A DNA stretch of 60,288 nucleotides from a virus (Duplodnaviria; Caudoviricetes). Within the stretch, counting starts at the first letter, position 1, and every line of letters starts with the position of its first letter. The notes beneath the pieces are model-generated. The model made no database searches and had not been told where the DNA came from. It saw only the letters and a list, made by a program, of their open reading frames with translations. Below are positions 21,663 through 43,850 of the stretch, piece by piece. The stretch is from IMG/VR virus record IMGVR_UViG_3300050021_000294, positions 1 to 60,288 of that record. One strand, 5' to 3'. Both the position numbers and the translations under genes were made by a program.

Positions 21663-21779
21663 AGTTAACCGAGATCTACTTAGATCTCGCTCGAGCTCAC
21701 AATCAAAGATTGTGAAGTTAACCACGATCTAAGTAGATCGTGTTCGAGCTTATCTGATCTTTGATCAGATAAGGTTAAC
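21663..21779. repeat. GATC-rich double-hairpin repeat, copies 2 and 3 in tandem
   Basis: GTTAAC-[CGAGATCT..AGATCTCG]-CTCGAGC-[TCACAATC AAA GATTGTGA]-AGTTAAC-[CACGATCT AAGT AGATCGTG]-TTCGAGC-[TTATCTGATC TTT GATCAGATAA]-GGTTAAC. Confidence 0.88.
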
Positions 21780-21795
21780 TGACTATCGGCTAACA

Positions 21796-22936: not shown

Positions 22937-22970
22937 GAGCGATGATGTGCCAATTGGCACATCATCGCTC
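22937..22970. terminator. 34-bp perfect palindrome/terminator
   Basis: GAGCGATGATGTGCCAATTGGCACATCATCGCTC. Confidence 0.7.
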
Positions 22971-23001
22971 TTTACACTCCAACAATCTGGAGGATAATGA
23001 T

Positions 23002-24492
23002 TTGGATAACGATCCTATCATACCACCTCACCATGTGTTCATCGATAACTATCTCAATCTCATTGATCTTGATGCGATGTTTGCTAAATCACCAGACGCC
23101 ATCATTCTGAATAAGATTGATGCTTCTGCACCAGACTATGTGAAGTTGCGTAACAGTCGAGTGTTTGCCAGAGCTGGTGCTCTTAATTTCATTGCTCATT
23201 GTGATTGTGGTACCATTTCTGGTAATCTTAACATCGGTCAAGAATGTTCACTTTGTAAGACCAAATGCACTCTCGATTTCAGTTCTTCTGAACAACTCGA
23301 ACATAACACTTGGTTTAGTATTCCATCAGTACTTCCTGGAATATTACATCCAATTGCTTATATTGTATTATCTAATTGGTTATCACGAAAAAGCAGTATC
23401 GATTGGACACCGAGGAATGGTGCCACGAACTATCTCGATATTATTATTGATGCCAGTGAGGATTTGCCGCCAGAACTCCATGGTATCGTATTGGGACGCG
23501 GACATGCCTATCTCTATGAGAATTTCGATGAATTGATGTCGCAATTCTTGAACTATTTCCGCAATGTCAACAAAAAGCCGGCTTCTGCTAAGAAGAACAA
23601 TGCTGATTATATCGAACAGTTTGTTCTCAACTATCGAAGTGTAATATTCTGTACAAAACTACCAGTCATGTCAAATGTGCTACATTCGATTACCTCGTCG
23701 GATGGTGGAGCCAAGAGTCGACAGTATGCGGATGTCAGTCTTCAAGTCATCATGGATGCTGCAACTGATTTGCGACATGTTGAAGAAACCACGGTGCGAA
23801 CTCGACCAAGAGCCGTATCTGAGATCGTTCATCGGATCTATAAGACGTATATTACTTATATCGTCGATATCGCCAAGACACGATTGAGTAGTAAGAACTC
23901 TTTGATTCGCGGACACATACTTGGAACTCGGTTGCATTTCTCCTTGAGAACTGTGATCATTCCCCATATGGATCGCTATGATGAACTTTATTTTCCTTGG
24001 GGGGTCACAGTCAATCTGCTTAAGTTACATATCGTTGGTCGTCTCGTGCGCCAGCATGGGTTATCTATCGGCGAAGCCATGAATCGTCATGTTAAGTCAC
24101 TGTTGTGTCATGATCCAATGATTGATCGGGTCATGAAAGATCTGATAAATGAATGTAAACCAGATTTCCCAGGCCTTCCTATCCTTTTCGGACGAAACCC
24201 GAGCTTGCGTCGTGGGGCGATGTCTTTATTCTATATGACCAGAGTTAAACCAGAGCTTGAAGATAAGACTATCAATATTTCGACTTTGACGATCGGCGCT
24301 CCAAATGCAGATTTCGATGGTGACGCCATGAATGGTATTCTGCTGACCGAGATGGATGCGGCCCGTGCCTATCATGTGTTGCATCCATCCCAGCGCATTC
24401 GATCAACCAATGAAAGTTCCATCAGCACAGATATCACACTCCCAAAACAGAGCCTTGCCGTTCTAAACAACTTCCTCCAATTAGTCGACTGA
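23002..24492 (+). CDS. rpoC: non-virion RNA polymerase beta' N-terminal subunit (phiKZ gp55-like)
   Basis: Zn-finger CDC..CSLC, RGHILGTRLHFSLRTVI, GRNPSL and catalytic NADFDGD; GGAGG RBS before TTG 23002. Confidence 0.92.
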   Translation: MDNDPIIPPHHVFIDNYLNLIDLDAMFAKSPDAIILNKIDASAPDYVKLRNSRVFARAGALNFIAHCDCGTISGNLNIGQECSLCKTKCTLDFSSSEQLEHNTWFSIPSVLPGILHPIAYIVLSNWLSRKSSIDWTPRNGATNYLDIIIDASEDLPPELHGIVLGRGHAYLYENFDELMSQFLNYFRNVNKKPASAKKNNADYIEQFVLNYRSVIFCTKLPVMSNVLHSITSSDGGAKSRQYADVSLQVIMDAATDLRHVEETTVRTRPRAVSEIVHRIYKTYITYIVDIAKTRLSSKNSLIRGHILGTRLHFSLRTVIIPHMDRYDELYFPWGVTVNLLKLHIVGRLVRQHGLSIGEAMNRHVKSLLCHDPMIDRVMKDLINECKPDFPGLPILFGRNPSLRRGAMSLFYMTRVKPELEDKTINISTLTIGAPNADFDGDAMNGILLTEMDAARAYHVLHPSQRIRSTNESSISTDITLPKQSLAVLNNFLQLVD

Positions 24493-26998: not shown

Positions 26999-27011
26999 AA
27001 GGAATGTTGTT

Positions 27012-27374
27012 ATGCCACAGATAGAAGATCCCGAACAATTAACTGAAGTTGTAGATATTGAAACCGACGCGATCGAGTGCAGTGTGCGCACTCGTGGTGC
27101 CTGGAATACAACAGTCAGTGTCCCCATTGATCCTGATCCAACCAACAATTCCAGAGCTGAAGGTTTCTTTGGATACGATCCTCGGAAAATTCAGAATTCT
27201 ATTACAGTCGTCGATGACGTGTTTGTCGGTGGCCATGCTGTTGTGTTCGGAGACAAATTTCCAATGCCTATGGGTCGCAATTATATTGTCGATTATAGAT
27301 TTTCCGATAATTACAAAAAGAAGCGAAATGCTCAGAGAAAAGCTCGTGCCATCACTCGTAAACATCGGAAATAA
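27012..27374 (+). CDS. hypothetical protein with basic C-terminus
   Basis: AAGGA RBS; ends KKKRNAQRKARAITRKHRK. Confidence 0.6.
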   Translation: MPQIEDPEQLTEVVDIETDAIECSVRTRGAWNTTVSVPIDPDPTNNSRAEGFFGYDPRKIQNSITVVDDVFVGGHAVVFGDKFPMPMGRNYIVDYRFSDNYKKKRNAQRKARAITRKHRK

Positions 27375-27411
27375 AATATGATATTTTTAACTCAACATTA
27401 AGGAATTTATC

Positions 27412-27729
27412 ATGGTCAACATAACCACCATATCAGATGATAGAATCAGTAGTCCTGGAGAAATCACTGATGCTATCGTAGATTTATTTAATACCCATCT
27501 GAATACAAGGATCAATGCTGTTGGGGTGGAGATGAATCTACCCTATCTCGTCGTCATTGGCGATGGAATGAATATATATTACACCACGAATAAGGAGTCG
27601 GACACTCCGGGATTCTACGTTCACGCTTTGGCTGGACTCATACAGACTATAGCCAAACAATTTGACGTACCCAACAATATTATCGTAGAACAAGTCATGT
27701 TAAAATTAGACAATACAAAATCAATTTAA
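27412..27729 (+). CDS. hypothetical protein
   Basis: AAGGA RBS. Confidence 0.55.
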   Translation: MVNITTISDDRISSPGEITDAIVDLFNTHLNTRINAVGVEMNLPYLVVIGDGMNIYYTTNKESDTPGFYVHALAGLIQTIAKQFDVPNNIIVEQVMLKLDNTKSI

Positions 27730-27753
27730 TCAGTCAATATCTCTACCGCATTT

Positions 27754-27767
27754 TAGATATATATTAT
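27754..27767 (+). promoter_or_regulatory. early promoter motif
   Basis: TAGATATATATTAT. Confidence 0.65.
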
Positions 27768-27813
27768 TTATTTGTATCTGTAACACCATTATTCAAAGAA
27801 AGGATACAACAGT

Positions 27814-27977
27814 ATGCTTACAGCACGCGTCTATCGTTTGTATCCTTCTGGGGAACAACGAGTTCAACTAGCCCAACACTTCGGTTGCTGCTCGGTGAGG
27901 GCTCTTTGTAAGTCAACCAGACTATCGGTTGCAGTCCCTATGAAACGAGAAACATCAGAAATGATGTGGTACATTCA
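27814..27977 (+). mobile_element. tnpB: internally deleted IS200/IS605 tnpB relic: N-terminal codons fused to an omegaRNA-like right end (copy 1)
   Basis: MLTARVYRLYPSGEQRVQLAQHFGC matches the TnpB N-terminal (YRLYP..EQ...L..HFGC) pattern; followed by CTCG..GTAAG..GCAG..TGAAACGAGAA-hairpin-..TTCA, typical of TnpB right ends. Confidence 0.8.
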
Positions 27978-28042
27978 AATGTACTACTTGGTAGAAGACT
28001 ATTTTCAACCACCACCTTATACACCCAATAGGAGTACTTTCC

Positions 28043-28642
28043 ATGCAGTTATCGAGCCCATTCTCCGTGGGAAGTGTCAGTGCTGGTGCCCTTCTTGGTA
28101 CAACAGGTACTGCCGATCTTGTCCGTTCGATCAATGAATCACTTGGCGGCTCTGGACTCATTTCTACTGTAAGCAGTGCTGCAAGCAAGGGTCGCAATCT
28201 GTTCATCGAAAACGTACTTCGTCCTATCCAACGAGGTCGGGCTGAAGTGATGCAGCGGGTTAATATTCTGATGAATCCCGATGTCATCAGGCCCCTTATT
28301 GCCGATGCTGATTTTGCAGCAATTCCTCCATGCATGTATGAAGCTATCGTCATGTATCCGCCAGTTCGGAAATTGCTTGAACAAGGACGCATTTCTGGAT
28401 TTGGCTTTGATCCCGACTGGCTTCCAAAAGAAGACACCTTTGGTAGATTGATTGCTAATGGAACATGTGAAGAAATACCAGATGTAGATGGTAAGCGTTG
28501 GATGACCTGGGAATGGCACAGCGGCGATCCGAAAGTTAGTGAAAGTGATCTGGATGCTATTGAAATTACCAGACAGAACATCGAACGACTCATTAACACA
28601 ACACGTATCGATCCAACTGATTTTCCAAATGACCGGGGGTAG
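28043..28642 (+). CDS. conserved phiKZ-like core-block protein
   Basis: AIPPCMYEAIVMYPPVRKL..QGRISGF and C-terminal IDPTD resemble a family in this block of phiKZ-like phages. Confidence 0.6.
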   Translation: MQLSSPFSVGSVSAGALLGTTGTADLVRSINESLGGSGLISTVSSAASKGRNLFIENVLRPIQRGRAEVMQRVNILMNPDVIRPLIADADFAAIPPCMYEAIVMYPPVRKLLEQGRISGFGFDPDWLPKEDTFGRLIANGTCEEIPDVDGKRWMTWEWHSGDPKVSESDLDAIEITRQNIERLINTTRIDPTDFPNDRG

Positions 28643-28957
28643 AATAACAATGGATAAGCCAACGACTATCGTTCGTAGTTCTGTTTTTGGTATTGACCTT
28701 GATGCCAAAAACCACAATGGGAAACAAAAATTAACTGGGAAATTACAACATGATTCAAAACAATAGTTGCCGGGTGTCTCTTGTGGGTCTACCAAGATGG
28801 GCTAGAATAGATATATTGATGCGAAAACCTTCTCCTTGGTGGAGAACTCATAATCGATCTGTAAAACGACGAGGACCCCTTCAATTGGCTCTCGATTATA
28901 GACAAGATTATGTGCGCGGCGCTCGCGGACTTTCACTTCGATAAATTACACGATCAG

Positions 28958-28985
28958 ATACATCCAGACACATGTCTGGATGTAT
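28958..28985. terminator. hairpin terminator
   Basis: ATACATCCAGACA-CA-TGTCTGGATGTAT followed by a T-run. Confidence 0.7.
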
Positions 28986-29053
28986 TATTTTTTGATGTGT
29001 CTTAAATAATGTCACTTCATGATCTTATGATTATTCAAAGTGGAGATTATGTG

Positions 29054-29479
29054 ATGTCGACAACTACCACTATATTACCAACACTCGATTCTCAATCCAT
29101 TCTTACAAACCCAGTTGATATTTTGTCCTATATAATCAGATATTACTGCACTGCTCCAAAAAGTATTTCTGATACAACACCTACTTTAATGATCTCATTG
29201 GCAGATGATGTATCGCGATATCAGAATGATTCTGGTATGTTAATCAATATAGTTACCACTGCATTACAGTCAGTATTGAATCAATATTTTCCATCACCTA
29301 ATGCTTCATCGACAGTTGATGTTTCAACCAGTGATAATGGTGACAATACTTACAATCTCACCATACAACTTGTGGCCACCGTTAATGGTGCTGTTTATAC
29401 CATAGGGGCCGATGTGTCTGTTAACTCAGCCGGTATCCTGTTGTTGAAATTCCACCCAGGACTTCCTTCATTTTCATAA
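29054..29479 (+). CDS. conserved protein, possibly gp25-like baseplate/sheath initiator
   Basis: Helix-helix then beta-hairpin pattern (LQSVLNQYF..VDVS..YNLTIQL); GGAG RBS. Confidence 0.45.
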   Translation: MSTTTTILPTLDSQSILTNPVDILSYIIRYYCTAPKSISDTTPTLMISLADDVSRYQNDSGMLINIVTTALQSVLNQYFPSPNASSTVDVSTSDNGDNTYNLTIQLVATVNGAVYTIGADVSVNSAGILLLKFHPGLPSFS

Positions 29480-29499
29480 GCTTGTTAGGAACCATAGTA

Positions 29500-30096
29500 A
29501 TGAGTCTCGCTCCTCCGATGAAATCCTCCATACCGCCAATCCAAATGATTACTATTGAAGAGCCCGATACTACTAAGCTATTCAATGCCCTTCAGAAAAT
29601 TCATTCACGACCCAATACTGTCACAAGACAACAATTTCATCAATTTGAACCCCTGTTCAAAAAAGAACACAATCTTGACCCCACACAATTAGAAAATTTA
29701 ACAAAGCTTTATTGCAAGACATTTGATTTTTATAAACAGACCGTTATTATTGAAAGTGCTGACAATCCAAAAGTTGTTATTACCCTACCTGCAGTATTTG
29801 CTCCCGTTAGAACACTATCTCCAACTGAACGAAATGCAACATTGGTCGACATCAATAACAAACTTGCTGGATCGTTACCAAAACATAGCACTAATGCATT
29901 TGGACAGATGGCAGATGCCTTGATTACAGAACAAGTTCACAACAAGAGTGTTATTACTGAATATCGTAAAGACTATGTAGCAACAATCCAAGAGTTTCTC
30001 AACGCCTATAGTGATAAATCAAAACCCGCAACCATCACGGTAGATGAGACGGCCACTTCTACTGTATTTAAAGATGCTGACTGCACTTTCGAATGA
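29500..30096 (+). CDS. conserved hypothetical protein
   Basis: F.QFEPLF, V.II......V..TLPAVF; overlaps the sbcD start (ATGA). Confidence 0.6.
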   Translation: MSLAPPMKSSIPPIQMITIEEPDTTKLFNALQKIHSRPNTVTRQQFHQFEPLFKKEHNLDPTQLENLTKLYCKTFDFYKQTVIIESADNPKVVITLPAVFAPVRTLSPTERNATLVDINNKLAGSLPKHSTNAFGQMADALITEQVHNKSVITEYRKDYVATIQEFLNAYSDKSKPATITVDETATSTVFKDADCTFE

Positions 30097-31274
30097 GTGC
30101 GACAATACCTTTTTTTCTGACAGCACGCAATACGCCGTTGCGGATTATGTCGACGTCTGACTGGCATCTCGGCAATGCTCGAGTTCCAGCAGTTAATATC
30201 TGCAATAGGTTGCGTGAAGTCATCTTTCCTCTCTTACCCAACATCGATCTTCTCAATATCGGCGGTGATGTTTGGGATACCTTATTATCTATCAATAACG
30301 AATCCAATGAAATTATTTCTTTCATCATTGATCTACTACGTATTTGCAATGATCATCGTATTGTCGTACGCGTATTACTTGGCACATTCACCCATGACCG
30401 CGATCAATCCACGGTATTTGAAATCTATCACAATAAATGTCAATTTACCAACGATCTACGATATATTGATAAAGTATATCTAGAGGAAATTTCTGCTCTT
30501 GATGTAAGAATCCTCTATCTTCCAGACGACTTGCCTTATGAATCATCCGATGCTTGTCTTGCTGCAGTGGCTGAGATGATGTTGGTTCGGGGATGGACTT
30601 GGGTTGATTATGTTTTTGGACATGGTTATTTCGAACATATGTTGCCTCCTCATATTCCAAAACCTCCTAAATGTACATTTCGAGTAGCGCAATTTACTTC
30701 ATTTGTGCGACGTTATATCTGCATGGGACACATTCATTTAAGTGACATAACTGGACAAGTAATTTACAATAATAGCTTCGACCGTATAGCGCATGGGGAG
30801 GAGGCTCCTAAGGGCTGTATGATCATAGAAGACCTAGGCACATCAGCTAAATTAAGGTTCATAGAAAATAAAAGAGCAACTAAGTTCATTACCTTAGATT
30901 TGTCAAAATACCCAGATAATGAAACCATAGGAAAACACTATCTTGATCTACTTAAAGAGAAGTTCAATGGTGCTTCTGGATATGTTCGAGTTAGTCATCC
31001 GTCGGCTGAAGTTCGCCAAACACTTCATCGACTAACAACCAGTCAACATCAAGAATTATTCTATTCCTTTAGAAAATCACTCGATGAATCCGTCAGTGAC
31101 GGTAGAATGCTTGCTCGCAAATCGTTCAATGTTAACGAATATCCCACTCCAACAATTACGACATTACCACAAATGATCTTCAAATTTCTCGAAAACAACG
31201 GTGGTGCCAAGTTAACTCCAAGTCGAATATCTGAAATTTTATCCAATTTATCATCAAACTCAACGGGCTCTTAG
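30093..31274 (+). CDS. sbcD: SbcD/Mre11-like metallophosphoesterase nuclease
   Basis: SDWHLG, GGDVWD, GTFTHD, HGYF, GHIH and SFDRIAHGEE.PKG motifs. Confidence 0.88.
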   Translation: MSATIPFFLTARNTPLRIMSTSDWHLGNARVPAVNICNRLREVIFPLLPNIDLLNIGGDVWDTLLSINNESNEIISFIIDLLRICNDHRIVVRVLLGTFTHDRDQSTVFEIYHNKCQFTNDLRYIDKVYLEEISALDVRILYLPDDLPYESSDACLAAVAEMMLVRGWTWVDYVFGHGYFEHMLPPHIPKPPKCTFRVAQFTSFVRRYICMGHIHLSDITGQVIYNNSFDRIAHGEEAPKGCMIIEDLGTSAKLRFIENKRATKFITLDLSKYPDNETIGKHYLDLLKEKFNGASGYVRVSHPSAEVRQTLHRLTTSQHQELFYSFRKSLDESVSDGRMLARKSFNVNEYPTPTITTLPQMIFKFLENNGGAKLTPSRISEILSNLSSNSTGS

Positions 31275-31285
31275 ATATATATTAT
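31272..31285 (+). promoter_or_regulatory. early promoter motif
   Basis: TAGATATATATTAT. Confidence 0.65.
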
Positions 31286-31305
31286 CACAATAGTAACCAG
31301 AGAGG

Positions 31306-31680
31306 TTGGATATGCGTAAATATATTAAGTTCAGTGACAACACCATGCATGAATTGTCGTCACTGACTTATGATGAATTTATTTCATTGGATTTATGGAC
31401 AGGTGCTTCTGATATAGCATTTGCCAGCTGGCTTTCTCATAATAAACTATCAGAACTTGATAGTTTTAATGATGAAACTAAATCCGATTCAGTTATTGTA
31501 GTAGAGATCGCACATCGCAGTTTCGAATTCAATCCCTCTGGTGATGAAAAGACTTGGATCGTATGTGATAAATCAGTCATAGGTATCAAACCTCCTGGTG
31601 GTGGATTATCTTTAGTTGAAACACATGCAGTTAATGCAATCCTTAAAAAGAAATACGGAGATTATCATCCTACTGTATAA
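31306..31680 (+). CDS. hypothetical protein
   Basis: GAGG RBS downstream of a promoter motif. Confidence 0.6.
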   Translation: MDMRKYIKFSDNTMHELSSLTYDEFISLDLWTGASDIAFASWLSHNKLSELDSFNDETKSDSVIVVEIAHRSFEFNPSGDEKTWIVCDKSVIGIKPPGGGLSLVETHAVNAILKKKYGDYHPTV

Positions 31681-31702
31681 TACAAAATAAGGATCATTTT
31701 CA

Positions 31703-32596
31703 ATGACATATACATTTCCAGATACTTCTGGGTTAGAACGAGCCCAGAATGATCTAACAGAACCACTATATCGAGGATCTATCGGTTCAAATAGAATCTT
31801 TCATGTGCTTCGTACTACTGCAGGTCTCATCAATAATCCACGCTGGGATCTATTCATAATTAACGTATACACACTACTGCGCAATGCCTATAGTAAAGAT
31901 ATCAAACAACAAGCCATTGAAAAAATCGTTGATGCCGATGTAGATTTGTACATGACATTCATAGGAGCCTATTGTTCGTTTTTACGACTGATGCCCGCAA
32001 CGGTATTGTTTTATGCTCCAAACTATAGAGCTATTCCAAAAGAACTCCTTCGTAAGACGACTGGACAGCGCGCTGAGATGGATGTTATGTATGATAAGTT
32101 ATTACATAAACTTCCTACCAAACTCACAGAACTAACCGAAGATGTTTCAGTTCGCAAATTCTTGGTTGCTACCAGTGGGAATACTTTTCCCCATAAAGAA
32201 TTACCTGGATATATTCGTGAGATATATGGCGGGATACGTACCTCCGGACAGATCGGTACCGTGTTGTTTACGCACTGTCCAATCGACCTTCATCTTACAA
32301 CAACGATTCCAAAAATGGATCTGTTTGAAAGCTTCACTGGTGCAATTTATCCAGTATCAGAATTTGGTCGTAAGTTGACTAAAGAAGTAAAGGTCCCATT
32401 CAATACAGCAACACATCGTGCATTTGGTGATGACATCCATCTGATTGCGTTATGTAAAGGTCCTCAAAAGACTAAGCTAGTGGAACTTGCAGCCAAAAGA
32501 AATTGGACCATTCACACCGAACGTGAAATCATCAACGATATCACCTCTACATTTTCCGATATTTCATCATCCGAATTGACTCGATTGAGATTGTGA
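31703..32596 (+). CDS. conserved PIN/FEN-like nuclease-fold protein of the phiKZ core block
   Basis: FIINVYTLLRNAY, TH.PIDL, L.ESFTG and PFN...H..FGD motifs. Confidence 0.55.
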   Translation: MTYTFPDTSGLERAQNDLTEPLYRGSIGSNRIFHVLRTTAGLINNPRWDLFIINVYTLLRNAYSKDIKQQAIEKIVDADVDLYMTFIGAYCSFLRLMPATVLFYAPNYRAIPKELLRKTTGQRAEMDVMYDKLLHKLPTKLTELTEDVSVRKFLVATSGNTFPHKELPGYIREIYGGIRTSGQIGTVLFTHCPIDLHLTTTIPKMDLFESFTGAIYPVSEFGRKLTKEVKVPFNTATHRAFGDDIHLIALCKGPQKTKLVELAAKRNWTIHTEREIINDITSTFSDISSSELTRLRL

Positions 32597-32671
32597 GAAC
32601 TACATCTTGTGTATTCCTTAACAGGAGCTAATTATTGTATGTGTTAGATTTATACAATAAGGAGATCCCAA

Positions 32672-33229
32672 GTGGCTGATCTAAGTTTCGACCGTCTGTT
32701 TAGTGTGAATGCTGAGAATGACAAAAATACGTCATTGAGTTTGGGTGTCTGGCAGGGCAATGCCAGCATCAGTGTATTTTCCAATCGCGCACAAGTTGCA
32801 CGACTGCCGGTGCCCAGGACATTTCAGGTTTCATTGAAGAAGGCTTTGCAGGTACTGTTGACCAGCAAGCCGACTGATAAGAAGAGCTGGAATTTCAGCA
32901 AGTGGGATCCGGAGACCAAGAAGAGTTTCAGTATTGGAACTTTTGTTATCGGTCGTGATGACAAAGCCATATTCTTCATCGGCATTGCTGCACCAGACCA
33001 TCCTCCGATGAAGTTTATTCTGAAATCACCGATTTCTTTTGATACATCAGATCCGATGACGGATGTCCAGCGTTCTGAACTTGCGGTAGAAACACTGATC
33101 GAACAGCTCGGTTTTGATATCCCCATGGCAGTATCACTTACCAGTTTCAAGCGAACTGATACTGGTCGTGCGACTGGTGGTGCTGCTAACAATAATGGCA
33201 TTCGCGATTCGGATGTTTCGATTTTCTAA
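32672..33229 (+). CDS. chmC: putative ChmC-like (Whirly-fold) nucleic-acid-binding protein
   Basis: Beta-rich LSLGVWQGNASISVF / IGTFVIGRD..AIFFIGI with a Gly/Asn, acidic tail; lies upstream of the sigma-like RNAP subunit as in PhiPA3/Goslar; AAGGAG RBS. Confidence 0.55.
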   Translation: MADLSFDRLFSVNAENDKNTSLSLGVWQGNASISVFSNRAQVARLPVPRTFQVSLKKALQVLLTSKPTDKKSWNFSKWDPETKKSFSIGTFVIGRDDKAIFFIGIAAPDHPPMKFILKSPISFDTSDPMTDVQRSELAVETLIEQLGFDIPMAVSLTSFKRTDTGRATGGAANNNGIRDSDVSIF

Positions 33230-33244
33230 CGATATCAATTAAGA

Positions 33245-33274
33245 ACTCACGTCTGGAGTAATCCAGACGTGAGT
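33245..33274. terminator. hairpin terminator
   Basis: ACTCACGTCTGGA-GTAA-TCCAGACGTGAGT. Confidence 0.7.
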
Positions 33275-33318
33275 CTTGTTGAAGTTCATTTAACCTCACA
33301 TCGGATCTCATTTATATA

Positions 33319-33332
33319 CAGACATATATTAC
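33319..33332 (+). promoter_or_regulatory. early promoter motif
   Basis: CAGACATATATTAC. Confidence 0.7.
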
Positions 33333-33409
33333 TTAGTTGAAGAGTTTCCGAATCAAATTGGTATACTTCTTCATTCCTACAATACTCACAACTAGAAGGA
33401 CTTTCCGAC

Positions 33410-33892
33410 ATGTCACTCATGTTCGATGAAAATAGCATCGCTACAACTACACATCCATTAGCTCGAAGGTTGCGCAAGTTCTTCTATCGGAATAATGTTA
33501 CCGTAGAAGAATTCGACCTGCTTATTCGCGCATATGGCGTAAAGCACGGTCAAAGTGAATCGTCGATCCGGTTGCATCAAATCAATCTACCTCGTGCATT
33601 GAAGATCGATGATCTCACCTTCCGTATGTTTCAGTTTTGTTTGGTTCAGCTTTTCGGTTCAACCGACGCTCAGGTCAACCTGGTATTGCAAGATCGCGAT
33701 CCTGATACTATGATGATTTCTAATCACACACTGATGGCCTTGATTCACGGCAGTGAACAGTATAGTGATTATCTAAAACTATTCATAAAGGCCCGATGCG
33801 ACGAGGCGGAAAGTCTTCGCGAGCTTGAGAAAGTGAAGAACGCCATTACAGAGGCATGTTCCCTCCTCTCTGTCATCTCGTTTAAGAATTGA
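33410..33892 (+). CDS. putative DNA-binding protein
   Basis: LARRLRKFF...NLPRAL..DDLTFRMF pattern resembles small helical DNA-binding proteins of jumbo phages. Confidence 0.5.
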   Translation: MSLMFDENSIATTTHPLARRLRKFFYRNNVTVEEFDLLIRAYGVKHGQSESSIRLHQINLPRALKIDDLTFRMFQFCLVQLFGSTDAQVNLVLQDRDPDTMMISNHTLMALIHGSEQYSDYLKLFIKARCDEAESLRELEKVKNAITEACSLLSVISFKN

Positions 33893-33899
33893 GTTCATC

Positions 33900-34325
33900 A
33901 TGTCCAAGTCAATCCATACGGTTAAATCCAATCACGTTGCTCTGAACAAGTTGCACCAGAAGAACACGACTGCCTATCGATTTGCTGATCCTGATCCGAT
34001 CTTGGATCTTCTGCGCGCGGCGATTTCTGATGCGATGCGCGATAATCGCATGTCTATTGTACAAATTGCTGCCGATGCGATGTGTGCCTATCAGACAGTT
34101 GCTCGTATTGTGGATGGAGAGACGCGCCGTCCTCAAAATAGTACTGTTGATCGCATCCTGAAAGCCTGTGGTTTCACCAGGCCGATTCTGCGTGCCATGC
34201 TGGACGTACATGACATGACCCTGAATGTTCAGGAAATGTATGATGCGATGGAAGCTGTCATCACCAAAAAGATGTCCCATGCTGAAATCGTAGCTCTGTT
34301 GAAAAAGACTATCGGTAAGAAGTAG
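33900..34325 (+). CDS. XRE/Cro-type HTH transcriptional regulator
   Basis: MSIVQIAADAMCAYQTVARIVDGETRRPQNSTVDRILKACG. Confidence 0.75.
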   Translation: MSKSIHTVKSNHVALNKLHQKNTTAYRFADPDPILDLLRAAISDAMRDNRMSIVQIAADAMCAYQTVARIVDGETRRPQNSTVDRILKACGFTRPILRAMLDVHDMTLNVQEMYDAMEAVITKKMSHAEIVALLKKTIGKK

Positions 34326-34338
34326 AAGGAAGTCACAC

Positions 34339-34803
34339 ATGTCACGCGATAAAGTACTCGAACAAGCAGCCAAGCTTTGTGATGAGCTTGCTGCTTCATA
34401 TAGCGCCTGTGAAGTATCCTTTGTTGGAAGTCGATCTGATGGTTTGTTTGCAGAGGCGGCTAAGGAATGTGCAGCTAAGATTCGTTCACAAATTCCTCCT
34501 CCGGCTGGATACAATGAATTGATTGAGAGTCTGCTCATTGATGGAAGCCAACCATCCACTCCCAATACCACAGGATTGGCAGCGGCGCCTACCATGGAAA
34601 CCATGACTTTGCCGGGACATCAAATCTATAAAGACCAGAATACTGGAGATTACTGGGTAGAACTCGCCTGGATTAATTATCCAGCAACCTGCCTACGAAA
34701 TCTCCGTACTGGTGATAATACCGTTGAAGTCATCGGTTGTCTGCATGCAGATCGCTTTGTTGCAATCGGGAGAATCGAATCCTCGAAACTTCCTAGAACC
34801 TAA
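34339..34803 (+). CDS. hypothetical protein
   Basis: LEQAAKLCD..AKECAAKIR helical motif common in phage hypothetical proteins. Confidence 0.6.
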   Translation: MSRDKVLEQAAKLCDELAASYSACEVSFVGSRSDGLFAEAAKECAAKIRSQIPPPAGYNELIESLLIDGSQPSTPNTTGLAAAPTMETMTLPGHQIYKDQNTGDYWVELAWINYPATCLRNLRTGDNTVEVIGCLHADRFVAIGRIESSKLPRT

Positions 34804-34815
34804 AAGAAAACACAT

Positions 34816-35250
34816 ATGTCCACTGATCTGACTGTTGACAACTGGAAGAATATCCGTCGCGATAGCGAGAAGATGTTGAACGATACGCTGCGTCAGTTGC
34901 ATGAGCACCTGACGATGTCGCCGGAAGAAGAGGTCTTCGATCTGGCGAAGTTGGCCAATATGTCATCGATGCCGAAGGTGATGCCAACCAACATGATCGC
35001 GGCGCGCAGTTGCATCAATGATCTGGTCGGCCAGATCGAGGCACTGCAGCGGGCTCTTCGGATGTCAGTACATCTGGCTTCGGATACGAAGAACTACATG
35101 AATGGCGTGAGTGGATCTGAGATCAGCGACTCCACCTGCGTTCTGTTCGGTGGGATCAGGTCTCGTTATGAGGTGTGTGCAGAAACCTACGAGAGGCTGC
35201 AGGTCAAGCGTGACTTGACGTCGGATCGTTTGCAGAAAGCCACTGACTGA
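34816..35250 (+). CDS. hypothetical protein (GC-richer)
   Basis: Co-oriented ORF ending at a hairpin. Confidence 0.6.
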   Translation: MSTDLTVDNWKNIRRDSEKMLNDTLRQLHEHLTMSPEEEVFDLAKLANMSSMPKVMPTNMIAARSCINDLVGQIEALQRALRMSVHLASDTKNYMNGVSGSEISDSTCVLFGGIRSRYEVCAETYERLQVKRDLTSDRLQKATD

Positions 35251-35257
35251 TGTTGAA

Positions 35258-35291
35258 TACCATACTCCTGGGACATCCCAGGAGTATGGTA
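35258..35291. terminator. hairpin terminator
   Basis: TACCATACTCCTGGGA-CA-TCCCAGGAGTATGGTA. Confidence 0.75.
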
Positions 35292-35327
35292 ACTTTCATG
35301 ATTTTATTTTTTATCTCAATGCAGCTT

Positions 35328-35341
35328 CGGATATATATTAC
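35328..35341 (+). promoter_or_regulatory. early promoter motif
   Basis: CGGATATATATTAC. Confidence 0.7.
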
Positions 35342-35431
35342 TATTTTGAAGATCAAATAAAAATTCACAGTAATCTGGATTATCCATTACATCATAATGA
35401 CATGCTATAGAATTTGGAAATTGACTAAAGA

Positions 35432-37255
35432 ATGAAGCGTCTCCAACAAAGTTGTGATAATAGACCATTCTATTTATTGGGAAATGTCATGGAAATAACC
35501 TATCGTAGAATGTCAAATGGCAACAAAGATATCGTCGTTGCTTTTATAGATACAGAGGGTCTTGATCTCGGAATAGAGACAACCTATCTTGAACTCGATA
35601 CAGAAGATGATGAAGTAGCGCCATACGTTGATCCAGAAGATGATTCTGAAGAGACCGAAGTCCCATCTCCCATCATCGTTGATGTCGATGACGGACCTTA
35701 TAATCTCAACCAACTCTATTTTCTAGTCGGAACTTATCAGAAACTAACTGAAAATCCAGAAGGTGCTTGGGAACTATTGTTGCGTGGAGCCAATCGATTT
35801 CTCGATACACTATCTCCTGATGAATTAAGACAGTTTTGTCTATTCTTCATTTATGCTCGACAAACCATTACACGAGAGTTGATTGGTGGAAGTGCTATTA
35901 CTGATGTTGCAACACATCTTGGTAATGAACTTTATGATCTGGCTTTGGCTATCAATCTACCAGCGAAGCTATTGCATTATGTTCAATATGAATCTGGGAT
36001 TCCAATTCCAGATCTCTCTACTGCAGGAACAAATGCGAGTCGTGATTCTGAGGACATGACATTTAGAGTACCTGAATATTATGTATTGCTTGCAATCAGT
36101 GTTCTTTGTAAAATCTTAGCTCCTATCTGGGGTGACATGATTGAACGAACTCGCGATGATGTTGATAATATGTTAAAAGAGATCCAATGTATTAATCTCA
36201 TTGAACCGATACTTACGATTGGCGTGTTCAGTATTATACGTGAAAAACTCTATAACTATGTCTCCACTATCGTCAATACCGAAATGAAAAATTCCTATGC
36301 CACCGCATCATTTGCTGCAACTATCGGTGGTGTATCCAGGACACAATTTCATCACATTGTGTTTTGTAATTTGATTGTTAAACGATTTGTTACTATCGAT
36401 CTCTATATGCTTGACGGTGACAAAAGTAGCAACGTAATGATTTGGGTTGCAACCTGCTCAAGACAATCGTATACGTCGACACAACAAGCGCTTAACAAAC
36501 GCTGTCGAATTATGCCTCGCACAGATATCTCCGAAAACGCCAGTTATGGAGAAGAAGAGCGTAGTGTCTCGGTTTTAGAACATAGTAGTCGCATCACCGA
36601 TGTTACTGCAGATACACCCCAATTGATTCGATTTGGTGCTCGTATGGCTGTGCAGCGCCTACGCAAGGAATATGAAGTATCTGAATTTGAGTTTCTTCAG
36701 GTTATGAATTATTATCAACAAAATCCAATCCAGGTCACTTCGTTCAATAAAATTCTGGTTGGTGTCTTTGTTGGTAATCATATCGGTGGTGCTCAAGGTA
36801 TAAAATATCTCGATCTGCCACTTTATATGGAACTGGTCACGATCACCCAGATCTATATTGCCAAGCAATATGCTGCTCCTGATGTTGTTCACTTACTGAC
36901 TGCCAATACCCCCATTGAAGATCGGCCAGTATTAGAACTATCCTCCATCAACAGCATGATCGACAATACCTCTAAGAAGACACTTGAGTATCGTGGATGT
37001 GAAGAATCATTTCCATACACACTCAATAGTGTTGGTATTGGAACAGCACTCAAGACATTACAAGACTATATCATCAAACATCATCACTATGCGAACACTT
37101 CACCATTCATTTCTGGAATCATGGATAATGCCACATTGCCACCAGGAACTCTCATTTATTATGAACCAGAAGTTATGCAACAATGTTGTTCTGTCATTCT
37201 CGACAATATTAATCCTCATGAGGTTCGCATGGGTAGACAACTTCCAGGAGACTGA
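35432..37255 (+). CDS. non-virion RNAP sigma-like subunit (phiKZ gp68-like); start may be 35489
   Basis: IPIPDL...TF...EY..L..ISV..K...PIWG motif, E..SVLE, size and position in the core block. Confidence 0.7.
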   Translation: MKRLQQSCDNRPFYLLGNVMEITYRRMSNGNKDIVVAFIDTEGLDLGIETTYLELDTEDDEVAPYVDPEDDSEETEVPSPIIVDVDDGPYNLNQLYFLVGTYQKLTENPEGAWELLLRGANRFLDTLSPDELRQFCLFFIYARQTITRELIGGSAITDVATHLGNELYDLALAINLPAKLLHYVQYESGIPIPDLSTAGTNASRDSEDMTFRVPEYYVLLAISVLCKILAPIWGDMIERTRDDVDNMLKEIQCINLIEPILTIGVFSIIREKLYNYVSTIVNTEMKNSYATASFAATIGGVSRTQFHHIVFCNLIVKRFVTIDLYMLDGDKSSNVMIWVATCSRQSYTSTQQALNKRCRIMPRTDISENASYGEEERSVSVLEHSSRITDVTADTPQLIRFGARMAVQRLRKEYEVSEFEFLQVMNYYQQNPIQVTSFNKILVGVFVGNHIGGAQGIKYLDLPLYMELVTITQIYIAKQYAAPDVVHLLTANTPIEDRPVLELSSINSMIDNTSKKTLEYRGCEESFPYTLNSVGIGTALKTLQDYIIKHHHYANTSPFISGIMDNATLPPGTLIYYEPEVMQQCCSVILDNINPHEVRMGRQLPGD

Positions 37256-37258
37256 TCC

Positions 37259-38374
37259 ATGATCCTTGCGGCATTTCGTTTAGAACGAGATCGACTTACA
37301 TCAAGCCAGTCATTTGGTTATGAACGACAATTATGGCCTGGAAGGAGATTGCCATTTCAACAGTTTACAACAAAACTTGGTTGTCCTATCGAAATAGGCA
37401 CAACGCTAACAGCAAGTATTGTAAAAATTATCGAATTGTACAATCGCGAAGAACCAATTGTAATCGAACGATTGGCTTGGCAATTTGGCAATCAACTCTA
37501 TCCCTATCGTGTAAAATACATTCGTCTTTGTGATACGATGCAATCAGAAGAACCCATGCTCTTTCTCCCTAACATAGGAACGATCCACAAAAAGTTAACT
37601 GGACTTGATATAGATATTATCTCACCATTAGAGTTTTATCTCGATAGAGCAGTGACTATAGATCCTCGAATCATTCCATCATCAATTCAAACCTACATCC
37701 ACTCACTTTGTCATAAACATCGTTTGGCAATTGATGGATTGGCCCCACAACAAACTGATCCTCTCACGTTACGTGACTTTCTGACAGTTCTTGATTGTGA
37801 AAATCCGTTTGGGTTTGAACAATTTGTTATGCCAAAATTAGCCATTAATGATCCAATTAGTATCCCCTTCATTAATCGTTCGTTGGATGCAAGACATTTG
37901 TTCTCTCCAGGCGCCGGAGGTAATCCATTTGATACTTCAGCAGTTGGACCCATTCAAATTAATCATCCGGAAGTTACTCTCTGCAGTCCTTTAGAATACC
38001 ATTCAATTGCAGTGGATTGTGATACTGTTAGTCAGCAATATTCTGATGTAAAACTCAAGTATATATTATCTTTTAGTGAAGGTATATTAGATTGTATTAC
38101 TCAACATTTGGTTTGTCGTTATGTCGATACTCCAAATGAAGAACTGATTGCTCACTATTGTGCATCAATTGTTATCAATGTACACGGTTCTGCTTGTGCT
38201 CAACATCCAGAGTGGATCGAAGACAATCATATCGTCACACTAGAAATCACTTATGGAGATGAAGCACTCATTGAGATTTATACCATCGATCACAAATGCT
38301 GTCTCTTTGCTCTACATCTAGATCTTGCCATGATAGCACTCTGTTGTGCAGATGTTATCCCACAAGTTGCTTGA
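37259..38374 (+). CDS. hypothetical protein
   Basis: 371-aa ORF coupled to its neighbours; no recognisable motif. Confidence 0.65.
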   Translation: MILAAFRLERDRLTSSQSFGYERQLWPGRRLPFQQFTTKLGCPIEIGTTLTASIVKIIELYNREEPIVIERLAWQFGNQLYPYRVKYIRLCDTMQSEEPMLFLPNIGTIHKKLTGLDIDIISPLEFYLDRAVTIDPRIIPSSIQTYIHSLCHKHRLAIDGLAPQQTDPLTLRDFLTVLDCENPFGFEQFVMPKLAINDPISIPFINRSLDARHLFSPGAGGNPFDTSAVGPIQINHPEVTLCSPLEYHSIAVDCDTVSQQYSDVKLKYILSFSEGILDCITQHLVCRYVDTPNEELIAHYCASIVINVHGSACAQHPEWIEDNHIVTLEITYGDEALIEIYTIDHKCCLFALHLDLAMIALCCADVIPQVA

Positions 38375-38394
38375 TCCCAATAACGGAGTCTCCC

Positions 38395-39975: not shown

Positions 39976-39987
39976 GAGGATACTCTA

Positions 39988-41358: not shown

Positions 41359-41376
41359 CACTGACAGTATGATAAA

Positions 41377-41401
41377 GGCAGACCTCAATATGAGGTCTGC
41401 C
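41377..41401. terminator. hairpin terminator
   Basis: GGCAGACCTCA-ATA-TGAGGTCTGCC. Confidence 0.65.
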
Positions 41402-41438
41402 CACTCATCCTATAGACCCCATTATTTTTGAGTGTAAC

Positions 41439-42596: not shown

Positions 42597-42601
42597 GTTC
42601 A

Positions 42602-43144: not shown

Positions 43145-43152
43145 TATAGTAC

Positions 43153-43186
43153 CCATAAGCCCTTCCCAATTGGGAAGGGCTTATGG
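43153..43186. terminator. perfect palindrome between convergent genes
   Basis: CCATAAGCCCTTCCCAATTGGGAAGGGCTTATGG. Confidence 0.75.
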
Positions 43187-43187
43187 T

Positions 43188-43526: not shown

Positions 43527-43615
43527 AATTTCCCCAGCATCCGTTAAAAATTATCTCGCAATCTCATAATATGATAATGTCCAAAATCTTTAGTAGATTG
43601 TGCTGATCAATATTT

Positions 43616-43629
43616 TAAATATATATTAC
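43616..43629 (+). promoter_or_regulatory. early promoter motif
   Basis: TAAATATATATTAC. Confidence 0.65.
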
Positions 43630-43653
43630 TACAACAGAAGGGAGGGATACAAT

Positions 43654-43815
43654 ATGCTCACAGCTCACATCTATCGTTTGTATCCTTCTTTGGAACAGAG
43701 GATACAACTAGCCCAACACTTCGGTTGTGCTCGGTGAGGGCTCTCGTAAGACATCTGAGACTATCCAGATGCAGTCCCTGTGAAACGAGAAACATCAGAA
43801 ATGATGTGGTACATT
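43654..43815 (+). mobile_element. tnpB: internally deleted tnpB relic plus omegaRNA-like scaffold (copy 2)
   Basis: 27-aa ORF MLTAHIYRLYPSLEQRIQLAQHFGCAR* (43654-43737) with GGAGG RBS; scaffold shares an identical 35-nt 3' segment with copy 1. Confidence 0.8.
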
Positions 43816-43850
43816 ACTAAGATGAAATGCACTATCCATGGGAGTTGAAA

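What the first reader, a model, noticed from the sequence alone, without database searches (positions are those of the whole stretch)
27754..27997. Nuclease-less TnpB guide-RNA cassettes: two diverged mini-tnpB/omegaRNA units under phage early promoters
Seen in sequence: two related ~160-nt units (27814-27977 and 43654-43815), each reading early promoter - RBS - about 27 codons matching the TnpB N-terminus (YRLYP..EQ...LAQHFGC) - direct fusion at GCTCGG to a structured segment. The structured part covaries: CAACC-AGACTATC-GGTTG in copy 1 versus CATCTG-AGACTATC-CAGATG in copy 2, i.e. different stems around the same loop. CTCG/CGAG and GGGC/GTCC pairings are retained, and the 35-nt 3' end TGAAACGAGAAACATCAGAAATGATGTGGTACATT (with an ACATCA-GAAA-TGATGT hairpin) is identical. 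Identity stops abruptly there, giving different putative guides (AATGTACTACTTGGTAGAAG versus ACTAAGATGAAATGCACTAT). Established: IS200/IS605 right ends encode the omegaRNA scaffold and the 3' flank is the guide. Inference: structure kept while the nuclease was deleted, and no shared left end, suggests retained guide-RNA cassettes. These could load a TnpB/TldR encoded in trans (phage or host) or act as decoys for host TnpB/Cas12-like proteins.
Basis: partly seen in the sequence, partly recalled or inferred. Interest (0 to 1): 0.88.

Follow-up and report, generated by a model that had tools for sequence, protein, structure and literature searches.

The report
Collapsed TnpB elements in jumbo phage
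Two short repeats in a giant-phage genome are the shrunken remains of RNA-guided nuclease (TnpB) mobile elements that have lost the nuclease gene and part of the guide-RNA scaffold, so they are more likely decayed selfish elements than working guide-RNA genes.

Summary
Two ~175-nt units (27802-27974 and 43645-43814) share the first 25-27 codons of a TnpB gene, fused to an ~86-nt structured 3' block. The codons pass Pfam PF12323. The 3' block is homologous to the non-coding region behind a full-length phage tnpB gene in L007/L008. So these are internal-deletion derivatives of tnpB elements in an RNAP-encoding jumbo phage, each lying behind a 10-nt AT-rich early-promoter-like motif.

The guide-RNA-cassette reading is only partly supported. 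By position, the retained block matches stems 2-4 and the 3' strand of the pseudoknot of the ISDra2 omegaRNA. The deletion removed stem 1 and the pseudoknot loop, which L007 still has.

One contig end in public run X10 places the deletion between an imperfect ~15-nt direct repeat. The two copies carry the two possible junction types. Run contigs and a protein search also show further cassette copies and a full-length-type 3' region in the same populations.

My best reading is that these are degenerate, nuclease-less stages of TnpB homing elements. Trans-acting guides remain possible at about 15%.

The parts
27757..27766 (+). 10-nt AT-rich motif ATATATATTA, a putative early (virion-RNAP) promoter, 48 nt before the copy-1 ATG
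   Evidence: 6 exact copies, all on the + strand. With up to 1 mismatch there are 23 matches against 10.2 +/- 3.4 in shuffles, and 0 of 100 shuffles reach 23. Contexts are shown. The motif type is described in PMC7598289. The promoter function is inferred.
27802..27845 (+). 5' hairpin GGATACAA (27802-27809) pairing with TTGTATCC (27838-27845). It encloses the RBS and start codon. Similarity between the copies starts here.
   Evidence: Read and present in the fold. The 3' arm is identical in c1 and c2 and matches L007 at 17 of 18 nt.
27814..27888 (+). Copy 1: tnpB codons 1-25 (MLTARVYRLYPSGEQRVQLAQHFGC)
   Evidence: PF12323, 35.6 bits, cut-off 21; 84-86% identity to the N-termini of the 377-aa TnpBs P0002 and P0003.
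27881..27895 (+). Deletion junction, copy 1: TCGGTTGCTGCTCGG (3'-parent type, with an extra C)
   Evidence: the loose end before 43728 in run X10 shows a full-length-type 3' region ending ...GTACGTCGGTTGC followed by TGCTCGG. Compared.
27889..27974 (+). Copy 1: 3' omegaRNA/right-end block. P1 is 27891-27894 with 27946-27949. P2 is 27898-27901 with 27936-27939. P3 is 27914-27918 with 27927-27931. P4 is 27952-27957 with 27962-27967. The tail GGTACAT is 27968-27974.
   Evidence: 102.7 bits; fold; homology to L007:5179-5265.
27975..27994 (+). Flank in the guide position of copy 1, part of the 5' leader of the gene at 28043-28642
   Evidence: no second site in the window; 7 exact 18-mer hits in viral contigs, which reduce to 3 unrelated contexts. 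None extends to 19 nt and they share no upstream motif.
43619..43628 (+). 10-nt AT-rich motif ATATATATTA, 26 nt before the copy-2 ATG
43645..43685 (+). 5' hairpin GGATACAA (43645-43652) pairing with TTGTATCC (43678-43685)
   Evidence: Read.
43654..43737 (+). Copy 2: closed mini-ORF of 27 codons (MLTAHIYRLYPSLEQRIQLAQHFGCAR) plus a TGA stop. The junction is of the N-terminal type, TCGGTTGTGCTCGG (43721-43734).
   Evidence: (PF12323, 37.1 bits).
43728..43814 (+). Copy 2: 3' omegaRNA/right-end block, with a 6-bp P3 (CATCTG/CAGATG)
   Evidence: (94.2 bits).
43815..43834 (+). Flank in the guide position of copy 2, part of the 5' leader of the RNAP beta-like gene at 43827/43842-46034
   Evidence: no other site in the window and none in viral contigs. 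(phrog_3295, E 1.6e-135).

Best explanation
The two units are internally deleted tnpB elements of an RNAP-encoding (phiKZ-like) jumbo phage. Each keeps the 5' end (a hairpin enclosing the RBS, then codons 1-25/27) and the last ~86 nt of the omegaRNA/right end. The tnpB body, about 1.2 kb, is gone. Stem 1 and the pseudoknot loop of the omegaRNA are gone with it.

The loss happened by recombination between an imperfect ~15-nt direct repeat. One arm is the FGCAR codons (TTCGGTTGTGCTCGG). The other is the 3' strand of stem 1 plus the start of stem 2 (GTCGGTTGCTGCTCGG). A crossover in the first half of the repeat gives the copy-1 junction. A crossover in the second half gives the copy-2 junction.

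The units lie between an early-promoter-like motif and an early gene, so they are probably transcribed as part of that gene's leader.

I read them as the degenerate stage of a homing cycle. Full-length elements still circulate in the same phage populations. An allele that keeps the element ends still separates the adjacent motif from the target, so it stays uncuttable, while it sheds the nuclease gene.

Shown: homology, architecture, the missing parts, further copies, and a full-length-type 3' region in one run. Inferred: the deletion mechanism (from 30 letters of one contig end), transcription, loss of guide function, and the immunity/homing-cycle logic.
For: Identity of the two halves.
- The N-terminal codons pass PF12323.
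- They are 84-86% identical to the N-termini of two 377-aa TnpBs, P0002 and P0003, which carry PF12323, PF01385 and PF07282.
- The 3' block is homologous to the non-coding stretch behind the tnpB stop in L007/L008. nhmmer gives E 2e-19 and the covariance model 75.5 bits.
- L008 is itself a phage contig, with a phrog_3011 DNA polymerase, a RuvC-like resolvase and an SbcC-like protein. An ATATATATT motif lies before its tnpB.

What was lost.
- With the last base of the tail as -1, P1 lies at -84..-81 / -29..-26, P2 at -77..-74 / -39..-36, P4 at -23..-8, and the tail GUAC at -6..-3.
- In ISDra2, stem 2 is -84..-81 / -35..-32, stem 3a is -77..-71 / -48..-42, and the pseudoknot pairs -5..-3 with -105..-103 (PMC10097598).
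- L007 folds a stem 1 whose 6-nt loop AGGUAC (GUAC at -100..-97) can pair with the tail GUAC.
- Neither cassette holds a GTAC upstream of the junction.

Direct repeat and full-length form. The loose end before 43728 in DNA run X10 reads ...CCGTGACAGGTACGTCGGTTGC followed by TGCTCGG. That is the L007-type stem-1 region (one search compared).

Other copies.
- Loose ends behind 27974 (X12) and 43814 (X15) show a copy with the copy-1-type junction but another flank.
- Loose ends behind 27951 and 43791 show another last-hairpin variant.
- Summed contig depth over the 3' block is 80-103 against about 16 in X10, and about 25 against about 5 in X12.
- P0004 (49 aa, 3 contigs) carries the copy-1-type junction with other N-terminal residues.

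Coding-type divergence. There are 12 nt differences in 75 nt but only 4 amino-acid changes and no stop. The permutation test gives P about 0.01. This fits divergence while the genes were still whole.

Transcription context. There is no terminator-like site and no + strand sigma-70-like site between the units and the downstream genes.
Against: - The direct-repeat model rests on 30 letters of one contig end in one run. I could not see that contig's tnpB or show that it belongs to this phage.
- The 3' block is very well kept. It has 1 change in the last 46 nt and 17 of 17 identities at P1/P2, and P3 changes with pairing kept. A variant in run X10 at locus 1 shows a compensatory A>T / T>A pair in P4, at 27957 and 27962. 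This would also fit continued selection on the RNA, or on a DNA hairpin.
- At least three cassette-type copies share the copy-1 junction (c1, the copy with the other flank, and P0004). That is more simply explained by copying of the cassette form than by repeated deletions.
- The need for stem 1 and the pseudoknot is known for ISDra2 and was not tested for this clade.
- The formal covariation test on 4 sequences is weak. 82.4% of cells pair against 78.1 +/- 2.2 in shuffles (22 of 500 reach it). The covariation score is 0.219 against 0.149 (24 of 500).
- RNA-library contigs cover copy 1 (X15, 27566-27951). They cannot show transcript ends or exclude DNA carry-over.
Confidence: 0.55

Rival explanations
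1. Working trans guide-RNA cassettes. The early transcript is processed to a short omegaRNA whose guide is the 3' flank. A TnpB encoded elsewhere in the phage, or by a co-infecting relative, loads it. The nuclease then cuts cassette-free alleles of related phages, giving homing or competition.
For: - The 3' block is highly conserved, and stems change with pairing kept between copies and between strains.
- There are several copies, each with its own flank.
- A full-length-type 3' region occurs in a run that holds the phage.
- Relatives P0002, P0003 and L007 keep the columns I take to be the RuvC D-E-D residues (D181, E265, D345/D347) and four cysteines. The motif assignment is recalled.
- Only 26% of the genome is held.
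- The units lie behind early-promoter-like motifs.
- Protein-less elements that carry omegaRNAs to be used in trans are mentioned in print (PMC10055086, Discussion passage read).
Against: - Stem 1 and the pseudoknot partner of the tail are deleted, and nothing in the 5' half replaces them.
- For ISDra2, both active truncations reported in the passages read (Trim1, Trim2) keep the 5' part of the 116-nt scaffold that holds stem 1 and the pseudoknot strand.
- No TnpB is found in the window.
- No target beyond the unit's own flank was found.
Confidence: 0.15
2. Non-autonomous transposons (PATE/MITE-like) of the IS200/IS605 family. The 5' hairpin and the last hairpin plus tail act as left and right ends, recognised as single-stranded DNA by a TnpA supplied in trans. 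The cassette form itself has been copied to new sites.
For: - Several copies have identical or near-identical ends but different 3' flanks.
- The copy-1-type junction is shared by at least three copies.
- Similarity runs exactly from one hairpin foot to 7-8 nt behind the last hairpin.
- Covariation in hairpins is equally expected for DNA hairpins bound by TnpA.
Against: - No Y1 transposase is found in the window. None of the 8 L008 neighbours scanned against PHROGs, 6 of them also against Pfam, matches a transposase.
- Nothing upstream of the RBS hairpin is shared among c1, c2 and L007, so no left-end cleavage site or adjacent motif can be named.
- The left flanks of the extra copies were not seen.
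Confidence: 0.12
3. A domesticated cis element. The mini-ORF and/or the RNA structures act as a leader that tunes translation or stability of the downstream early gene (the phrog_3254 protein, and the RNAP beta-like subunit).
For: - Both units lie in 5' leaders with no terminator before the gene.
- The start codon and RBS are intact, and the RBS lies within an 8-bp hairpin in both copies.
- Divergence of the 25 codons is coding-like.
Against: - The peptide ends differently in the two copies, at 27 versus 107 codons.
- The coding-like pattern is explained by the tnpB past.
- Nothing shows an effect on the downstream genes.
Confidence: 0.08

Closest known systems
IS200/IS605-family tnpB elements with their omegaRNA (ISDra2 as the solved example; L007/L008, P0002 and P0003 as the nearest relatives found)
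   Same: The N-terminal codons match PF12323. The 3' block is homologous to the region behind tnpB in L007. Stems fall at the positions of ISDra2 stems 2, 3 and 4, and a 4-nt tail motif sits at -6..-3, where the ISDra2 pseudoknot strand lies.
   Different: There is no WED/REC/RuvC/TNB body. Stem 1 and the pseudoknot loop are missing. The host is a jumbo phage, and the unit sits behind an early-promoter-like motif rather than in a bacterial chromosome.
Palindrome-associated transposable elements (PATEs) and mini-IS derivatives of IS200/IS605
   Same: They are short, encode no transposase or nuclease, keep the element ends, and occur in several copies. PATEs that carry omegaRNAs for use in trans are mentioned in print (PMC10055086).
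   Different: No left end beyond the RBS hairpin could be defined and no TnpA was found. A 25-27-codon piece of tnpB is kept. The omegaRNA is truncated at its 5' side.
Degenerate stages of homing-endonuclease elements, where introns or inteins have lost the endonuclease (the homing-cycle model is recalled). TnpB homing between co-infecting phages is proposed in PMC13565253 (passages read).
   Same: The nuclease gene is lost, while the insertion that interrupts the target site stays. Intact and decayed copies coexist in one population.
   Different: The nuclease here is RNA-guided, and part of its guide gene survives. The cycle itself was not observed here.
Guide RNAs of TldR (nuclease-dead TnpB relatives) and RNA anti-CRISPR repeat decoys of phages (both recalled, not tested)
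   Same: A guide or scaffold RNA that acts with a protein encoded elsewhere.
   Different: No dead TnpB and no host TnpB/Cas12 partner was found. The scaffold lacks the pseudoknot partner.

Membership tests
TnpB protein (IS200/IS605 / IS607 accessory nuclease) | N-terminal HTH_OrfB_IS605 segment | tested here: met
   35.6 and 37.1 bits against a cut-off of 21, covering profile positions 1-27/28 of 47.
TnpB protein (IS200/IS605 / IS607 accessory nuclease) | RuvC-like core (PF01385) and TNB/zinc-ribbon domain (PF07282) | tested here: not met
   no match anywhere in the window. The ORFs stop, or leave the frame, after codon 25-27. The units are fragments, not genes.
TnpB omegaRNA | Lies at the 3' end of the element, and its scaffold is homologous to that of a full-length tnpB locus | tested here: met
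   L007:5179-5265, directly behind the tnpB stop, matches at E 2e-19 (nhmmer) and 75.5 bits (covariance model). L021 matches at 53.1 bits.
TnpB omegaRNA | Conserved stems kept by compensating changes | tested here: inconclusive
   Folding each of 4 sequences alone recovers P4 in all four. P1 is recovered in c1, L007 and L021, and shifted by one base in c2. P2 is recovered in c1, L007 and L021 but not c2. P3 is recovered in c2 and L021 and only partly in c1 and L007. The pair count gives 82.4% paired against 51% or less for slid partners, but 22 to 24 of 500 shuffles reach the observed values. There are only 4 sequences and the alignment is imperfect. Run X10 adds one compensatory pair in P4.
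TnpB omegaRNA | Stem 1 and a pseudoknot between a 5' loop and the nucleotides just before the guide | tested here: not met
   L007 has stem 1 with the loop AGGUAC. The cassettes begin just 3' of it and hold no GTAC upstream of the junction. The feature is taken from ISDra2 (PMC10097598).
TnpB omegaRNA | Match to a curated RNA family model | tested here: inconclusive
   no Rfam match at gathering scores, and only chance-level hits at E of 0.39 or more. Rfam may hold no model of this clade.
TnpB omegaRNA | A discrete RNA bound by TnpB, with a guide that directs cleavage next to a TAM | not testable with these tools
   Only contigs of the RNA runs were available. No TAM can be named because the left end is undefined.
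PATE / MITE of IS200/IS605 | Right end with a hairpin and a conserved terminal motif, found with different flanks | tested here: met
   P4 plus the tail GGTACAT is followed by different letters in c1, c2, one further copy and two P4 variants.
PATE / MITE of IS200/IS605 | Shared left end with a hairpin and an adjacent target motif | tested here: inconclusive
   The shared sequence starts at the GGATACAA/TTGTATCC hairpin. Nothing upstream is shared among c1, c2 and L007.
PATE / MITE of IS200/IS605 | A cognate TnpA available in trans | tested here: inconclusive
   No PF01797 match in the window. 74% of the genome and the host are unseen.
Early promoters of RNAP-encoding jumbo phages | A ~10-nt highly conserved AT-rich motif upstream of early operons | tested here: met
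   with the description in PMC7598289. Transcription start sites were not mapped.

The most novel reading that the evidence does not exclude
The phage carries a dispersed set of nuclease-less guide modules, about 4-6 per genome. Each sits behind an early promoter with its own flank as guide. A single phage TnpB serves them in trans, either to cut cassette-free alleles of co-infecting relatives or to mark alleles as immune. This would be a transposon-derived, array-less counterpart of a CRISPR locus used in phage-against-phage conflict. It requires that this TnpB clade tolerates an omegaRNA without stem 1 and the pseudoknot, or that the 5' mini-ORF RNA replaces them.
Probability: 0.12. Interest if true: 0.85.

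Novelty: new member of a known kind. Interest (0 to 1): 0.38.

Why it matters
It shows that TnpB elements live, and decay, inside RNAP-encoding jumbo phages. There they are wired to the phage's own early promoters. One lineage repeatedly collapses into a fixed mini-form through a short internal direct repeat.

This gives a concrete natural system for asking whether RNA-guided homing runs through the same invasion-decay cycle as protein homing endonucleases. The system includes full-length copies, cassettes and strain variants, all present in many peat and soil data sets. It also allows a test of whether a 5'-truncated omegaRNA can still be used.

As it stands this is an annotation-level result. 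The units should be labelled as tnpB remnants, not as small-RNA genes.

Tried and rejected
- Rfam: no family matched at gathering thresholds over the whole window. Only chance-level hits (E of 0.39 or more, snoRNA/miRNA models on the minus strand) appeared around both units.
- Exact searches of viral contigs with a 27-mer and a 23-mer of the units gave 0 hits. The RNAP beta-like protein found no relative there, and neither did P0004.
- Related-locus scans with P0002 and with the alignment A2 gave 6 and 14 viral loci at 43% identity or less. The metagenome scan kept 80 loci out of 140 relatives. Only L007/L008 (62%) and L021/L022 carry a 3' block that my model finds. In all, 6 true matches plus 2 matches at E 0.88 came from 100 sources.
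- blastp of the ORFs of the 86 loci then held against the window's ORFs found nothing shared except the tnpB fragment.
- Two degenerate patterns in genome contigs gave 0 hits.
- DNA search of the 'phages' collection with 27000-29000 gave no match.
- Guide targets: neither 20-mer has a second site in the window with up to 3 mismatches. The copy-1 18-mer has 7 hits in viral contigs that reduce to 3 unrelated contexts, none extending to 19 nt. The copy-2 18-mer has 0 hits.
- Whole-unit folds are not more stable than shuffles, with z of -1.27 and -0.91.
- RNA-run contigs do not show transcription, ends or level, so I draw no conclusion on expression. Parts without cover in X15 and X16 are not evidence.
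- An automated structural alignment mis-registers P3 of L007 and P4 of L021, which weakens.
- I considered a leader-peptide function, a decoy function and a TldR partner. No call supports them.
Supplements were not opened. Extended Data of PMC10055086 on PATEs and of PMC10097598 on omegaRNA truncations could bear on how much scaffold is needed.
Full report
**What the window is.** The window is a 60,288-base IMG/VR virus record that CheckV estimates at 26% complete. It encodes three RNA-polymerase beta-like subunit pieces. These are 22942-24489 (phrog_2987), 43827-46031 (phrog_3295, E 1.6e-135) and 46031-48010 (phrog_3015). It also encodes a ribonucleotide reductase and a helicase. It is therefore a fragment of an RNAP-encoding jumbo phage of the phiKZ kind. 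No close relative exists in the 'phages' collection. None was found in viral contigs with the RNAP protein.

**The observation.** The two units are real.
- Searches show 85% identity over 27809-27887 vs 43649-43727.
- They show 98% identity over 27930-27975 vs 43770-43815.
- Between these stretches lies a hairpin whose stem differs while its loop, AGACTATC, is identical.
- Similarity begins at GGATACAA (27802 / 43645) and ends after GGTACAT(T) (27974/5 / 43814/5).
- The first 27 codons pass Pfam PF12323, the N-terminal segment of TnpB, at 35.6 and 37.1 bits against a cut-off of 21.
- Copy 2 is a closed 27-codon ORF. Copy 1 has one extra C at the junction and reads on for 107 codons.
- A covariance model of the 3' block finds only these two sites in the window.

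**Where the two halves come from.** A search for longer proteins with the copy-1 read-through peptide found two 377-aa TnpBs, P0002 and P0003. Their N-termini are 84-86% identical to the units, and they carry all three TnpB Pfam domains. Scanning metagenome contigs with P0002 gave L007/L008, whose TnpB is 62% identical to P0002.

The roughly 135 nt behind the tnpB stop in L007 contain a clear homologue of the units' 3' block. It reads TGCTCGGTGAAGG, then GTAAGT, a hairpin with loop AGACGAA, then CCGAGAAG, a last hairpin, and the tail AGTACAT. nhmmer gives E 2e-19 and the covariance model 75.5 bits. L021/L022 is a more distant member at 53.1 bits.

L008 is itself a phage contig, with a phrog_3011 DNA polymerase, a RuvC-like resolvase and an SbcC-like protein. 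An ATATATATT motif lies before its tnpB.

The units are therefore the 5' end and the 3' end of a phage-borne tnpB element joined together. The window holds no TnpB core, no TNB domain and no Y1 transposase.

**What exactly was kept and what was lost.** Folding each sequence alone gives this picture.
- The last hairpin, P4, is recovered in all four sequences.
- The four-base stem CUCG/CGAG (P1) is recovered in c1, L007 and L021.
- The inner stem AGGG/CCCU (P2) is recovered in c1, and its counterpart in L007 and L021. In c2 the minimum-energy fold uses other pairings for P1 and P2.
- The variable hairpin P3 is recovered in c2 and L021, and only partly in c1 and L007.

Counting from the last base of the tail as -1, the positions compare with the ISDra2 omegaRNA as follows. 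The ISDra2 values come from passages of PMC10097598 read.

| Element here | Position here | ISDra2 element | ISDra2 position |
|---|---|---|---|
| P1 | -84..-81 / -29..-26 | stem 2 | -84..-81 / -35..-32 |
| P2 | -77..-74 / -39..-36 | stem 3a | -77..-71 / -48..-42 |
| P4 | -23..-8 | stem 4 (hairpin with tetraloop) | loop at -20..-17 |
| tail GUAC | -6..-3 | pseudoknot 3' strand | -5..-3, pairing with -105..-103 |

In L007 the stretch just 5' of P1 folds into a stem whose six-base loop is AGGUAC. Its GUAC lies at -100..-97 and is complementary to the tail GUAC. That is where a stem 1 with a pseudoknot loop should be.

The cassettes start immediately 3' of that stem and contain no GTAC in their 5' halves. 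So they keep stems 2-4 and the 3' strand of the pseudoknot. They have lost stem 1 and the 5' strand.

In ISDra2 the 116-nt scaffold with stem 1 and the pseudoknot is what remains in the active truncations. A 2026 review lists these among the conserved elements (PMC13639567, passages read). This is the main reason I doubt that the cassettes are competent guide RNAs. It is an argument by analogy and was not tested for this clade.

**How the deletion arose.** The phage is present in many public peat and soil runs. 20 rows hold part of the stretch, 14 of them half its words or more, and 6 are RNA libraries. I laid contigs of two RNA runs (X15, X16) and two DNA runs (X10, X12) on 27300-44300.

In X10 a contig that matches from 43728 onward is preceded by ...CCGTGACAGGTACGTCGGTTGC. 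This is the L007-type stem-1 region, followed by TGCTCGG. The 3' parent therefore reads GTCGGTTGCTGCTCGG, and the N-terminal codons read TTCGGTTGTGCTCGG. Together they form an imperfect 15-16-nt direct repeat.
- Copy 1 carries the 3'-type version, with the extra C.
- Copy 2 carries the N-terminal version.

Both are what crossovers in the first or second half of the repeat would give. This fits a recurrent direct-repeat deletion, but it rests on one contig end.

**Further copies.**
- Loose ends behind 27974 (X12) and 43814 (X15, an RNA library) show a copy with the copy-1 junction and hairpin but another 3' flank.
- Loose ends behind 27951 and 43791 show another version of the last hairpin (GTGTCA-TGT-TGACA) with other flanks.
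- Summed contig depth over the 3' block is 80-103 against about 16 in X10, and about 25 against about 5 in X12. This suggests several copies per phage equivalent, but summed depth is a poor measure.
- A protein search adds P0004 (49 aa, 3 contigs). It has the copy-1-type junction with other N-terminal residues and the second hairpin version.

**Signs of constraint and what they mean.**
- The 25 shared codons differ at 12 of 75 bases but at only 4 residues, two of them V/I, with no stop. A permutation test gives P about 0.01.
- P3 changes fully while pairing is kept.
- In X10 the locus-1 unit has A>T at 27957 together with T>A at 27962, a compensating pair in P4.

These show selection on a protein and on hairpins. 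That selection may have acted while the elements were whole, or on DNA hairpins. The formal count on four sequences is weak.

**Setting.** The motif ATATATATTA occurs six times exactly, always on the + strand. It is enriched and lies 48 and 26 nt before the two ATGs. RNAP-encoding jumbo phages have ~10-nt AT-rich early-promoter motifs (PMC7598289). No terminator-like site lies between the units and the next genes. The units are therefore probably part of the leaders of a phrog_3254 gene and of an RNAP beta-like gene. The promoter is not part of the repeat, and nothing upstream of the RBS hairpin is shared with L007. No left end or adjacent motif can be named.

**Guides.** The flanks have no second site in the window and no convincing match in viral contigs.

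**Verdict.** The units are tnpB remnants. They are new members of a known kind: mini-IS or PATE-like derivatives, whose possible trans use of omegaRNAs is already mentioned in PMC10055086. TnpB homing between co-infecting phages is proposed in PMC13565253.

I rate the competing readings as follows:
- decayed, uncuttable alleles in a homing cycle: 0.55
- trans guides: 0.15
- TnpA-mobilised mini-transposons: 0.12
- a cis leader role: 0.08

I found no paper on TnpB remnants in jumbo phages in three searches: 'TnpB' with 'jumbo phage', 'TnpB' with 'palindrome-associated transposable elements', and 'TnpB', 'bacteriophage', 'homing', 'coinfect'.

Noticed in passing
window 27976-28024: In DNA run X10 the 12 nt directly behind the right end at locus 1 differ from the window at 8 places. 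The next 19 nt show no listed change, and then short clusters differ again (28007-28010, 28015-28017).
   Followed up: no
window 27752-27806: A 55-nt promoter-plus-leader block, from the AT-rich motif to the RBS, occurs in runs X10 and X12 with other letters on both sides. Early-promoter modules therefore seem to be duplicated elsewhere in this phage or a relative.
   Followed up: no
window 27969-27984; 43809-43832; L007:5260-5271: The flank behind the tail holds an inverted copy of the tail. In copy 1 GTACATT is followed by AATGTAC 2 nt away. Copy 2 has one mismatch and a 10-nt gap. L007 matches at 5 of 6. This may be chance or a target-site preference.
   Followed up: partly
window 1656-1717, 21666-21697 and 21719-21780: A separate repeat family (D4/D5). 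It consists of two adjacent inverted-repeat hairpins (TAACCGAGATC...GATCTCG and TTATCTGATC...GATCAGATAA), present at two places 20 kb apart.
   Followed up: no
window 33607-33733: A contig of run X10 skips 125 nt here, a strain-level deletion or insertion between ORFs 33410-33892 and 33900-34325 (table 5).
   Followed up: no
window 43188-43526 (- strand): The 112-aa ORF (phrog_3455) just upstream of copy 2, on the opposite strand, has the highest contig depth of the stretch in both RNA libraries (26 and 54). Contig depth cannot rank expression.
   Followed up: no
L001-L006 and L087-L099: TnpB relatives at 29-43% identity occur on many large viral contigs (121-247 kb), so tnpB elements seem common in big phages.
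   Followed up: no
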